A stretch of 58,976 nucleotides of DNA from an uncultured Methanosarcinales archaeon (GTDB taxonomy: Archaea > Nanobdellota > Nanobdellia > Woesearchaeales > GW2011-AR9), in the NCBI GenBank assembly GCA_964464055.1, contig CAYXEO010000004.1, forward strand, positions 1 to 58,976. Reading direction: 5' to 3'. Position numbers: made by a program. Positions 30,001 through 33,000 of this stretch are shown in pieces (position 1 is the first letter of the stretch; each line of letters starts with the position of its first letter).

Positions 30001-33000
30001 TAGTCGTTTTTGTAGATGATTCGCCGAACTCTTCATTTATTCGTTCTTTGTACTTCACTAACAAATCTTCATAATCTTTTTTCTCCATCTAACATCCTCT
30101 AGCTAATAATAAACTCTTTTTAATAAACTAATATTTAGTTGTTTAAAAATATTACCTAAGTGAGAACGTATTAAGTTCGTCTCTTTGTTCCTTACTTAAC
30201 ACGTTTTTTATGATTAGAGTTGAAAGGTTTGGCGAAGGATGGTCTAAAATGATGTTGTCAACTTAATACGTACCTAAGTGAGATGGTAGAAGTGAATGAA
30301 AAATGAAGAAATGAAAGCCGAAATTCTCTGTCTTATGTGTTGTTTTTTTTGTTATTAGTGTTTTGAGAATTTAAAAAAAAGGTTAATAAGAATAAGTTAC
30401 CAAATCGCCAAGGTCTTCAGCAGAGATATTTCTTCCCAATGCAATATAACAATTTTCTGGAAAATCGTCACTTATTTTTCTTTTGAATCTACTAGAAACC
30501 CCATCTTGATCATTTTGTTTCATAGGCACAAAAGTACCATGAGCATAAGCATCTTTGGTAGGCAGAGTATTAGAATAATGAACTGGTATTTGGGTCGACA
30601 TATTAAGTTCCCTAAATAATTCAGAATCTTTTATTTGGTTCAAGTAACAATTAATCCGTGAACCTTTCATTCCACCTTTTTGATAAATTAATAAGGAAAC
30701 CACTTCCGCGGTTGGATTGTCAACTTGTTCCCTTAATTTATCGTTAAGGTAAATTTGTACTTCTTCCAATTTTTTAGCACGGTTATGATTTTGTATTTTA
30801 TTGATCTTTTTTTGTAAATCTTCCATAAATAGTTCAGAAACCCTGATTTTTATAAGAGTTTTGATAAAAAAAAAAGAAAAAAATTAAAGTACCTTATTAC
30901 TTATCTCGTCTTTCAACTGTTTAACAAACTCTTCCACAGCAACACCAAACTTAGTACCACCTTTTCTGGAACGGACAGCCAAAGTTTCATTCTCAACTTC
31001 TTTACCACCAATAGTTACAATATAGTTCACTTTTTGTAACTGTGCTTCCCGAACCTTTTTACCCAAAGATTCTACTCGAGAGTCTAGTTCTATTCTGACA
31101 TTTGCTTTTTTCAGTTGCTGTTCAATTTTCTCTGCAAAAGGAAGACAATCATCGTTGATGGTTACTATTTTCACTTGAGCAGGGTTAAGCCATAATGGGA
31201 AATTTCCGTTAAGATGTTCAGTAATAATACCAATAAATCTTTCAATTGAACCATAAATCACTCTATGTAACATTATTGGTCGTTTTTGTTTCCCGTCACT
31301 ATCAACAAATTCCAGTTCAAATCGTTCTGGTAAAGCCATGTCCATTTGGATTGTTGAACATTGCCAAGTTCGACTTAAAGAATCTTTCAAATGGAAATCT
31401 ATTTTCGGACCGTAGAATGCACCATCACCTTCATTAACTTTGTAAGTCAAATTACGTTTTTTCAAAACATTTTCTAGAGCAGTTTCAGCTAAATCCCATA
31501 CTCTATCTGCACCAATTCTTTTCTCTGGCCGAGTAGATAATTCTACATGTGACAAATCAAGTCCAAACACTGCAAACATTTCATCAATAATATCTATTAT
31601 TTTACCAATCTCATCTTCAACTTGCTCTTCAGTACAAAAAATATGAGCGTCATCTTGAGTGAACTGGATTACCCTAAACAAACCAGATAAAACACCAGAT
31701 AATTCTTGTCGATGAACAATACCTAATTCACCAACCCGTAAAGGTAATTCCTTGTAAGATTTTGGATTTGCTTTGTAAACTAACATACCACCTGGACAAT
31801 TCATTGGTTTAACTGCGAAAGTTCTTTCTTCATAATCACTAGTGAACATGTTTTCATGATATTTTGCCCAATGGCCAGATAATAACCACAACTTTTTATC
31901 CATGATTTGCGGAGTAGAAATTTCTTGATATTTGTTTTTTTGATGAACTTCTCGCCAATAATCCACCAAATTATTTTTTAAAATCATACCTTTATTATGC
32001 CAAAATACCATCCCTGGAGCAACTTCATTAAAACTCCACAAATCTAAATTTTGTCCAATTATACGGTGATCATTATCTTTTAATTTTGTAGTATCAAGTC
32101 TTGACCGAGATATTTGTTTTAATAATTTCTTAACACCTTCATCATCAAGTTCAACATCTTCTTCAACTTTTTTAGCCACTGCACTAGGTTTCTCTGCGTC
32201 AGGTTTTTCTATCTCAGCTCCAACACTAAATTCTCTGCTTAGTTCTGATAATGGATGACCTTTACAAGCTACATTGAACGCTTTATACCAACCGAACGGT
32301 GCCCGAGTTACTTGGAATTTGTCTGTCAAAAGTTTCTCAGCATCTTTGAGCACTTGTTCTGCCACTTTCGGATTTGATAAAGAAGAACTTAAATGTGCAT
32401 AAGGGTAAAGCACGATATTTTTAGCATTGACTTGCTGAGCGATGTTCTTAATCTCTTGAACATATTTTTCCACGTTACCAGAGACATCTTGTTCGTCTCT
32501 CTTTTCCACAGCGGTAAAAATAACTAAACAGTCTTCTACCTGTTTTTTCTCTTTTTCAATTCCCTCTTCAGCACCAGGAAAGGCTTTTTTCTTAGCTTCA
32601 AATTCAATAAAATCTGCATGTATAGTTAGTATTTTCATTATAATCAATCCTCATTTCGTAAGTAAATAGTTGACAACAGTGATGATTCCTTTTTCATGTC
32701 CAACTATCCCCATATCTTATAATAAAACGTGAAAAGTTAAGCGATCATGAAATAAAAAAACATTTCTGAACTTATAAACATATCGAACTTAACTATTTAC
32801 GTTCCTCATTTACCCAGAGAAGTAGAGGAGGGTTTATATTATTTATGTTAATAAACTTAAAGTAAAGAAAACTTTATAAAGAACAATAAAGAAACGATTT
32901 TAGTAATAGCCCCATGGTGTAGTGGACTATCATAGTGCCCTTTGGAGGCATTGACCGCGGTTCGAACCCGCGTGGGGCTACATTTTTCTTAATTGTTCAA

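What a model noticed while it worked through the whole genome (the two positions that open the first line are those of the whole stretch)
30884..32638. Mosaic ThrRS: archaeal editing domain on a bacterial catalytic core
ThrRS g00278 joins the archaeal D-aminoacyl-deacylase-like editing domain (1-136) to a bacterial-type catalytic and anticodon module. Boldest reading: in this family the catalytic core was replaced from bacteria several times under a fixed archaeal editor, some forms also keeping a bacterial editing remnant or gaining a YbaK-like domain. New if true: a natural cross-domain chimera that edits in cis, and a model for swapping editing domains.
Evidence so far: Pfam tRNA-Thr_ED 1-136; residues 187-584 are 55% identical to Firmicute ThrRS. 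In 40 family genomes the editing domain stays 58-76% identical while the core falls into classes of about 67-74%, 41-54% and 25-30% identity, frames 570-944 aa. G023 (741 aa) and G026 (933 aa) show the extra inserts.
(Added by a program. Inside this text positions count along the whole contig: contig position 1 is position 1 of the stretch shown here. "Call 12" and the like, gene names such as g00115 and contig names such as C1 are that model's own, and its searches are not shown. The text may have been shortened before it was handed on; [...] marks where a part breaks off. The agent that wrote the report below was given it as the finding of a first reader that could run no searches.)

Follow-up and report, generated by a model that had tools for sequence, protein, structure and literature searches.

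The report
Threonyl-tRNA synthetase with swappable catalytic cassette
This tiny archaeon's only threonine-tRNA-charging enzyme joins an archaeal proofreading domain to a catalytic part of the type used by bacteria, and close relatives keep nearly the same two ends of the gene around very different catalytic middles, so the middle has likely been swapped again and again like a cassette.

Summary
Observation confirmed. Window 30884-32638(-) encodes a 584-aa ThrRS: intact archaeal DTD-like editing domain (ED, 1-136), short linker, common-type catalytic domain and anticodon-binding domain (ABD). It is the only ThrRS found in this Woesearchaeota-like genome. The reading needs two corrections. (1) The unit replaced is often the catalytic domain alone. 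In three same-genus pairs the ED and ABD stay about 70-100% identical while the catalytic domain drops to mostly 20-60%, with the 3' break at the same G-x-F/L-P-x-W-L-x-P motif. At least five catalytic alleles, including the rare archaeal type, occur in the family; 8 of 20 multi-genome genera are mixed. ED distances track the species tree (rho 0.50), catalytic distances do not (-0.07). (2) 'From bacteria several times' holds only in part: one allele nests among CPR bacteria, but the window's allele and its ABD belong to Nanobdellota-wide lineages and no Firmicute donor is shown. Bacterial editing residues are lost in 31 of 31 ED-bearing remnants and kept in 47 of 47 ED-less relatives, so the ED likely edits. 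The scan noted this chimera before on other DPANN DNA; nine literature searches found no description. Activity untested.

The parts
30884..32638 (-). thrS, 584-aa threonyl-tRNA synthetase, the only one found in the genome
32231..32638 (-). Archaeal DTD-like Ser-tRNA(Thr) editing domain, residues 1-136; P79, H82, Y118, K119, E132 correspond to P. abyssi P80, H83, Y120, K121, E134
   Evidence: Pfam PF08915; PDB alignments; residue roles from PMC4491819 passages; H82, Y118, K119, E132 invariant in 53 of 53 ED + common-core proteins
32228..32260 (-). Conserved end of the ED (GHPLSELSREF, residues 127-137); shared identity between alleles stops just after it in family pairs, the likely 5' crossover anchor
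32081..32230 (-). Linker, residues 137-186: low-confidence tether 139-163 then a helix 166-178; the slot that holds the dead N2 remnant, ProXp-like or AlaX-like inserts in relatives
   Evidence: AlphaFold model pLDDT < 50 at 139-163, pTM 0.60; relatives
31193..32080 (-). Common-type (ThrRS-C) class II catalytic domain, residues 187-482, allele cat-1; Zn ligands C281, H332, H458 and motif arginines R310, R467 intact
31181..31207 (-). Catalytic/ABD junction motif GNFPLWLNP (residues 478-486); identity between different alleles resumes here in three same-genus pairs, the likely 3' crossover anchor
30887..31180 (-). Anticodon-binding domain, residues 487-584, of a Nanobdellota-wide lineage; E. coli R583, E600, R609 equivalents kept

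Best explanation
The gene encodes the genome's only threonyl-tRNA synthetase found, built of an archaeal editing domain, a common-type catalytic domain and a Nanobdellota anticodon-binding domain; it likely charges tRNA-Thr and likely removes mischarged serine with the tethered archaeal domain, and in this family the catalytic domain has likely been exchanged many times in place by recombination between the conserved end of the editing domain and the conserved start of the anticodon domain. Shown: domain anatomy, intact residues, mosaic identity profiles with sharp breaks, conserved flanks, tree conflict. Inferred: catalysis, editing in cis, recombination as the process. Steps: (1) an ED of rare-type origin became fused to common-type ThrRS in Nanobdellota, after which the bacterial-type N2 editing site decayed or was deleted; (2) because nearly all family alleles begin with the same ED, it gives a homology anchor even between catalytic domains 25-45% identical; (3) common-to-common swaps end at the catalytic/ABD junction or run through the ABD, common-to-rare swaps keep only the ED; (4) the two domains that read the host tRNA (ED probably U73, ABD the anticodon) tend to stay, which would make a foreign catalytic domain usable at once; (5) the slot behind the ED also takes up extra editing-type domains. 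Why several alleles persist is open; drift among equivalent alleles is the default, escape from ThrRS inhibitors the bolder option.
For: Same-genus pair G275 (cat-1)/G274 (cat-3): 4.4 kb upstream 84-85% nt identical running through nt 437 of the gene, downstream synteny kept; per 25 aa ED 80-95%, residues 151-475 20-72%, ABD 92-100%; same-allele control G044/G275 is 60-100% throughout. G035 (cat-1)/G302 (cat-2): ED 80-100%, ABD 68-100%, middle 24-60%. G149/G187 (another family): ED plus remnant 72-100%, catalytic 32-56%, ABD 72-92%. Rare/common pairs share only the ED, with shared upstream DNA in G018/G313 (82% nt from -751 to +418) and shared neighbours on both sides in G044/G024. 8 of 20 genera with two or more classed genomes are mixed. 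Mantel, 38 genomes: species~ED 0.50 (p 0.001), species~catalytic -0.07, ED~catalytic -0.12; 18 class changes on the species tree of 44 genomes against a minimum of 4 and 21.3 for shuffles. Pairwise union of cat-1, cat-2, cat-3 rejected in both AU runs. N2 residues H73, H77, C182, H186 kept in 47 of 47 ED-less Nanobdellota and lost in 31 of 31 ED-bearing remnants. All tRNA-Thr genes printed end in U73; U73 is the suggested ED determinant (PMC11295145 passages). No PF04073 trans-editor found in G000.
Against: No activity data. ABD distances do not track the species tree family-wide (rho 0.09, p 0.14), so the ABD also moves or 94 columns are too few. The ED also moves at times: G008 (cat-1) has an ED sister to G167 of another family (100/100) and G033 shares its whole gene and 700 nt downstream with G274 at 83% nt without shared upstream DNA. 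The ED tree is weak (8 starred of 71 branches, bootstrap unsettled) and the species tree is a quick tree of three adjacent RNA polymerase genes. Kin are not independent, so Mantel p values overstate. All genomes are metagenome assemblies; reads were laid only for the window. The ED works as an isolated domain and on E. coli tRNA in vitro (PMC4491819 passages), so neither cis action nor U73 dependence follows from sequence. No genome with two intact alleles was seen as an intermediate.
Confidence: 0.8

Rival explanations
1. One reading: each core class is a separate direct import from bacteria (Firmicutes for the window) under a fixed archaeal editor.
For: cat-2 and the G187 domain nest among CPR sequences; named top ED-less hits include Caldanaerobacter, Tepidanaerobacter, Desulfobacterales and Myxococcota at 57-59%; cat-1 + Firmicutes was not rejected in the fast AU run (p 0.068).
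Against: ED-less Woesearchaeota score equally; cat-1 is a 28-row clade (100) with a long stem, all of archaeal or ED-bearing rows, found in several orders; cat-1 + Firmicutes rejected in the longer AU run (p 0.0015); ABDs form a 141-row clade (97) of Nanobdellota plus two Desulfobacterales; cat-4 sits among ED-less Woesearchaeales. Each allele is monophyletic yet scattered on the species tree, which means spread among relatives.
Confidence: 0.12
2. Whole-gene homeoallele replacement only (Andam and Gogarten type): a few old chimeric genes are passed whole among relatives, with no intragenic exchange.
For: G033/G274 whole-gene identity 83% nt; cat-1 and cat-3 share a short helical linker.
Against: ED distance is the same within and between core classes (0.77 vs 0.76) and uncorrelated with core distance (rho 0.00); sharp intragenic breaks at domain borders in three pairs.
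Confidence: 0.04
3. The mosaics are metagenome assembly artefacts joining conserved ED or ABD sequence to another organism's core.
For: All are MAGs; several thrS genes are split or frameshifted (G056, G046, G281); conserved motifs are where mis-joins occur.
Against: The window junction is assembled in a second run; 116 of 120 top clusters share the architecture; cat-3 with the G044-genus ED and ABD occurs in four assemblies (G274, G276, G268, G033); frames stay open across 82-92% nt flanks, too diverged for assembler joins.
Confidence: 0.04

Closest known systems
Archaeal rare-type ThrRS (ThrRS-R; NF003068/PRK03991; editing domain structures 4rrf, 2hl1, 1y2q)
   Same: N-terminal DTD-like editing domain with the same pocket residues, fused in one chain to catalytic and anticodon domains.
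   Different: Catalytic and anticodon domains are 24-29% identical to rare-type relatives and fail NF003068; they are common-type.
Common-type ThrRS (ThrRS-C; E. coli-type 1qf6, 1nyq; also many archaea per PMC3191353)
   Same: Catalytic domain, Zn ligands, motif 2/3 arginines and anticodon residues.
   Different: No TGS or N2 editing domain in the window protein; in relatives N2 survives only without its catalytic residues.
ThrRS homeoalleles R and C in archaea (Andam and Gogarten 2011, PMC3191353)
   Same: Divergent equivalent forms replacing each other among relatives; usually one form per genome.
   Different: That paper expected whole-gene replacement and thought recombination between the forms unlikely at about 29% identity; here replacement is intragenic, at domain borders, within genera, among at least five alleles.
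Crenarchaeal split system ThrRS-cat + ThrRS-ed (PMC7373986 and PMC4491819 passages)
   Same: An archaeal ED proofreads for an editing-less catalytic enzyme.
   Different: There the ED is a separate protein acting in trans; here it is fused. NF011500 score 203.7 against cut-off 362.
SepRS with N-terminal tRNA-Thr-ED fusion (Mukai et al., PMC5424206, PMC8762117)
   Same: The same ED recruited onto a non-native class II catalytic domain by a short linker.
   Different: Different synthetase, rare, bacterial hosts; no recurrent catalytic swapping described in the passages read.
ProXp-ST1 / YeaK (INS superfamily; PMC11295145)
   Same: The insert in six relatives and P0244 is PF04073, 37% identical to E. 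coli YeaK over 155 aa; ProXp-ST1 edits Ser- and Thr-tRNA.
   Different: Known members are free-standing; here fused behind the ED. Absent from the window protein. Subfamily assignment rests on one pairwise comparison; that YeaK is ProXp-ST1 is recalled.

Membership tests
ThrRS-R (archaeal rare type) | N-terminal DTD-like editing domain with H83/Y120/K121/E134 equivalents | tested here: met
ThrRS-R (archaeal rare type) | Catalytic and anticodon domains of the rare clade (NF003068 over cut-off; tree position) | tested here: not met
   419 bits against 484; rare-type relative G020 scores 803; rare clade separate, 100 support
ThrRS-C (common type) | Catalytic domain in the common clade with C334/H385/H511, R363, R520 equivalents | tested here: met
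ThrRS-C (common type) | N-terminal TGS and N2 (tRNA_SAD) editing domain | tested here: not met
   no PF02824 or PF07973 hit; only 50 residues between ED and core
ThrRS-C (common type) | Recent bacterial (Firmicute) origin of the core | tested here: inconclusive
   AU p 0.068 and 0.0015 in two runs on the whole core; catalytic-only tree leaves cat-1 outside a mixed clade; no non-DPANN archaeal common-type sequences could be added
Split ThrRS-cat / ThrRS-ed | Editing domain on a separate gene | tested here: not met
   one open frame; no second ED match in G000
Editing ThrRS (any type) | Threonylation of tRNA-Thr and hydrolysis of Ser-tRNA(Thr) | not testable with these tools
   needs purified enzyme
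Editing ThrRS (any type) | ED dimer compatible with the catalytic dimer | not tested
   only a monomer model was made
ProXp-ST1/YeaK (insert of relatives only) | PF04073 domain closest to YeaK | tested here: inconclusive
   37% to YeaK, E 2e-38; weak match to YbaK 2dxa, E 8e-4; other ProXp subfamilies not compared

The most novel reading that the evidence does not exclude
An essential translation enzyme kept as a long-lived cassette polymorphism: these archaea switch the catalytic domain of ThrRS among at least five ancient alleles, including the borrelidin-resistant rare type, while keeping the tRNA-reading ends, as a way to escape ThrRS-directed inhibitors made by hosts or neighbours. The alleles differ in fixed ways around the active site (E. 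coli 336-337 GG, HH or FQ; F379I in cat-2; Q381L and Q479T in cat-3).
Probability: 0.2. Interest if true: 0.87.

Novelty: new variant of a known kind. Interest (0 to 1): 0.68.

Why it matters
Reviews pair the DTD-like editor with the archaeal core and the N2 editor with the bacterial/eukaryotic core; this family breaks that pairing as its normal state. It also shows that forms of an essential synthetase thought too divergent to recombine are exchanged inside the gene at domain borders, within single genera. That gives natural near-isogenic enzyme pairs (same ED and ABD, different catalytic domain) for asking how editing, charging and anticodon reading are coupled, how freely class II domains can be recombined for orthogonal synthetases, and whether inhibitors drive synthetase turnover. 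It also warns that whole-gene ThrRS trees of DPANN are misleading.

Tried and rejected
Firmicute donor by identity: rejected as non-diagnostic. ED-only gene conversion between G044 and G033, my first reading: dropped after one search showed G033 shares its whole gene with G274. G002 as an ED-less form: an assembly gap of N inside a cat-2 gene. Whole-core trees first nested cat-1 in a Nanobdellota clade; this weakened once the core proved mosaic and was split. The C20 mixture tree did not finish in two runs and the careful LG+G4 tree returned only its quick form. AU tests were unstable for two hypotheses: cat-1 + cat-4 gave p 0.098 (77 rows), 0.001 and 1e-6 (42 rows); all ED-bearing cores in one clade gave AU 0.226 with KH and SH 0 and 2e-4; constrained searches were short. 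No ED match in plasmids, in 61 CPR genomes, in 27 phage records among the 15 rows listed or in 73 viral loci. Donor of cat-3 not found: best plasmid hits 44-48%; nearest is a 403-aa editing-less second ThrRS in G104. The second ThrRS fragment in G262 is 40-46% to every allele and sits on a 3-kb contig, so it is no usable intermediate. No RNA holder listed. No complex prediction was run, since a ThrRS dimer would pass by likeness. Literature searches with no description of this chimera: (open-access text only).

Full report
1. Observation. The ORF at 30884-32638(-) gives 584 aa from an ATG (one search lists 587 aa from an upstream TTG). Pfam: tRNA-Thr_ED 1-136, class II core 268-475, anticodon domain 488-577. 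It fails the archaeal model NF003068 (419 against 484) and the ThrRS-ed model, whereas rare-type relative G020 scores 803. The N-terminal 137 residues match solved archaeal editing domains and residues 187-582 match common-type chains at 413 bits, against 163 for the 'probable threonyl-tRNA synthetase 1' 3a31. It is the only ThrRS found in G000 (885 kb, 97% complete), and no PF04073 trans-editor was found there. Nearest named proteins are Woesearchaeota/Nanoarchaeota, so the host is inferred to be a Woesearchaeales-type DPANN archaeon. 116 of the 120 best hits to the core carry the same three Pfam domains, and the ED-core junction is assembled without differences in a second run, so the chimera is real.

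2. All three parts look functional. ED: H82, Y118, K119 and E132 match P. abyssi H83, Y120, K121 and E134 (alignment; roles from passages of PMC4491819) and are invariant in 53 of 53 ED + common-core proteins. Core: equivalents of E. coli C334, H385, H511, R363, R520, Y462, D383 are kept in all 71 family chimeras aligned (the E. coli roles are recalled). ABD: E600 and R609 kept in all, R583 in 69 of 71. The AlphaFold model has confident ED and core joined by a low-confidence tether at 139-163 and a helix at 166-178 (pTM 0.60; 278-327 also low). All four tRNA-Thr genes of G000 and those printed for relatives end in U73, the base suggested to be read by the archaeal ED (PMC11295145 passages).

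3. The family. Of 60 family genomes first searched, 58 matched; 53 more were searched later, 43 matched. The catalytic-domain tree holds 72 family sequences: 18 cat-1 (the window's; script label A), 37 cat-2 (B), 15 cat-3 (C), 1 cat-4 (E, G019) and one ED-less form (G055); 7 more full-length genes are rare-type, and 8 partial genes are cat-2 by tblastn. Fragments and a few unclassed genomes were left out of trees. G055, the only full-length family gene without ED, is the deepest branch of the family in the species tree. Between ED and core lies a variable slot: a short linker (cat-1, most cat-3), a ~190-aa N2 remnant (cat-2, cat-4), a PF04073 domain before the remnant (G007, G026, G040, G058, and G154 of another family) or alone (G036, P0244). 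The N2 editing residues H73, H77, C182, H186 are present in 47 of 47 ED-less Nanobdellota proteins and absent in 31 of 31 ED-bearing remnants, while the YW and R structural residues stay. This is the best indirect sign that the ED does the editing. The PF04073 insert is 70-78% identical to free-standing ~162-aa proteins of DPANN and bacteria and 37% to E. coli YeaK.

4. Where the core comes from. In a sample of 150 genomes of the phylum, 108 of the 135 outside the family have a single core-only match (counted from the table; 24 weaker matches were not listed); those translated are ordinary common-type enzymes up to 57% identical to the window core. Andam and Gogarten (PMC3191353; passages and first part of section 6) already place the common form in all three domains. 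So 'bacterial-type' does not mean 'just taken from bacteria'. Splitting the core: the ABDs of all but two Nanobdellota common-type rows form one 141-row clade (97), which also holds two Desulfobacterales and leaves the other bacteria outside (94 columns, FastTree). The catalytic domains fall apart: cat-1 is a 28-row clade (100) on a long stem, spread over several orders and lying beside a mixed Nanobdellota/Firmicutes/Desulfobacterales/CPR group; cat-2 and the G187 domain lie among CPR bacteria; cat-3 groups with an editing-less 403-aa second ThrRS of G104; cat-4 lies among ED-less Woesearchaeales. On whole cores, unions cat-1+2, 1+3 and 2+3 were rejected in both AU runs; cat-1 + Firmicutes gave p 0.068 and 0.0015, cat-1 + Nanobdellota 0.535 and 0.159 (short searches, and the ABD signal is included). 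The ultimate origin of cat-1 is unresolved; a CPR origin of cat-2 is likely but rests on a FastTree placement with 82-95 support.

5. What is swapped. Core classes are scattered over the RNA-polymerase species tree: 18 changes among 44 genomes, minimum 4, shuffles 21.3. For 38 common-type genomes, species distance correlates with ED distance (0.50, p 0.001) but not with catalytic (-0.07) or ABD distance (0.09). Eight of 20 genera with two or more classed genomes are mixed (g2, g4, g8, g19, g24, g36, g45, g57). Three pairs map the event. G275/G274: upstream DNA 84-85% identical for 4.4 kb and through nt 437 of thrS, downstream genes syntenic; ED 80-95%, residues 151-475 20-72%, then 92-100% from GKFPAWLSP on. 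G035/G302: ED 80-100%, middle 24-60%, ABD 68-100%, break at the same motif. G149/G187 (family f55): ED and N2 remnant 72-100%, catalytic 32-56%, ABD 72-92%, 5' break at the EKR-D/S-HR start of the catalytic domain. Rare/common pairs share only the ED: G018/G313 82% nt from -751 to +418, G001/G058 and G309/G060 73-76% over the ED; G044 and G024 share neighbours on both sides. The same two upstream genes precede thrS in genomes with cat-1, cat-2, cat-3 and rare alleles. The ProXp-like insert comes and goes the same way (G282/G026, G281/G040). Against a strictly fixed frame: G033 shares the whole gene with G274 (83% nt) without upstream identity, G008 carries a foreign ED, and in several same-genus pairs (G278/G007, G263/G023) the ABD is not specially similar.

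6. Mechanism. Shown: anatomy, conserved residues, mosaic profiles, synteny, tree conflict. Inferred: in-place recombination anchored in the conserved ED end and either the catalytic/ABD junction or downstream DNA; charging by the catalytic domain; editing in cis by a tethered ED. Keeping ED and ABD would keep tRNA reading matched to the host, so a foreign catalytic domain could work at once. Why alleles persist is not settled. Rare-type archaeal ThrRS is borrelidin-resistant (PMC4389257 passages) and the alleles differ in fixed ways near the active site, which allows an inhibitor-escape reading (about 20%); neutral turnover of equivalent alleles is the default.

7. Known and new. Each module is known, ED fusions to another synthetase are known (PMC5424206, PMC8762117 passages), and R/C homeoalleles are known, with intragenic recombination thought unlikely. 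Reviews read in passages (PMC11295145, PMC7373986, PMC11580382, PMC9437257) give no ED + common-core enzyme. Nine searches of open-access text found none (listings and abstracts seen); supplements were not read, and Text S1/Fig. S4 of PMC5424206 may bear on this. Earlier notes of this scan report the chimera, the dead N2 remnant and an AlaX insert on other DPANN DNA.

8. Verdict. Real, conserved and apparently undescribed in print; a new variant of known ThrRS homeoallele replacement. First reading partly supported. Interest 0.68.

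Noticed in passing
G000:C2:3926-4017(-) (L265), outside the window: A fourth tRNA-Thr with anticodon AGU (A34, unusual for archaea; recalled), with a 19-nt intron, next to tRNA-Thr(GGU). The same anticodon arm is exact in 5 of 114 family genomes (G000, G033, G014 intronless, G274, G275), all from genera in G000's subclade of the species tree.
   Followed up: partly
window 32963-32993 and 33041-33071: Exact 31-nt duplication of the 3' end of tRNA-Gln(UUG) (32908-32981) and its tail, 78 nt apart, upstream of thrS; looks like the scar of a small insertion at a tRNA end.
   Followed up: no
window 1469-3232(-): 587-aa protein that reads as an alanyl-tRNA synthetase ending right after its editing domain, without the C-terminal extension (identification from the sequence and the weak TIGR00418 match, not scanned).
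   Followed up: no
window 39301-40710(-): 469-aa protein with two tandem deoxynucleoside kinase domains (Pfam dNK, 2 stretches).
   Followed up: no
P0243, P0248, P0249, P0251: cat-1-like ThrRS with a ~150-aa insert behind the ED that has AlaX/tRNA_SAD-like motifs (PF07973 listed for three of the four); P0246 has a ~320-aa insert inside the catalytic domain that looks like an intein.
   Followed up: partly
L430:4521-4937(+) (G049:C10): Free-standing, divergent 138-aa tRNA-Thr_ED protein (E 8e-18) in a genome that also has the fused enzyme; keeps H82 and K119 but not E132.
   Followed up: partly
L428:6519-7730(-) (G104:C3): Second, 403-aa editing-less ThrRS in a genome with an ordinary 635-aa ThrRS; its catalytic domain is the nearest relative of cat-3, so such paralogues may carry catalytic cassettes.
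   Followed up: partly
P0268, P0310: Two Desulfobacterales ThrRS have both ABD and catalytic domain inside Nanobdellota groups, a possible archaeon-to-bacterium transfer or a small-alignment artefact.
   Followed up: no
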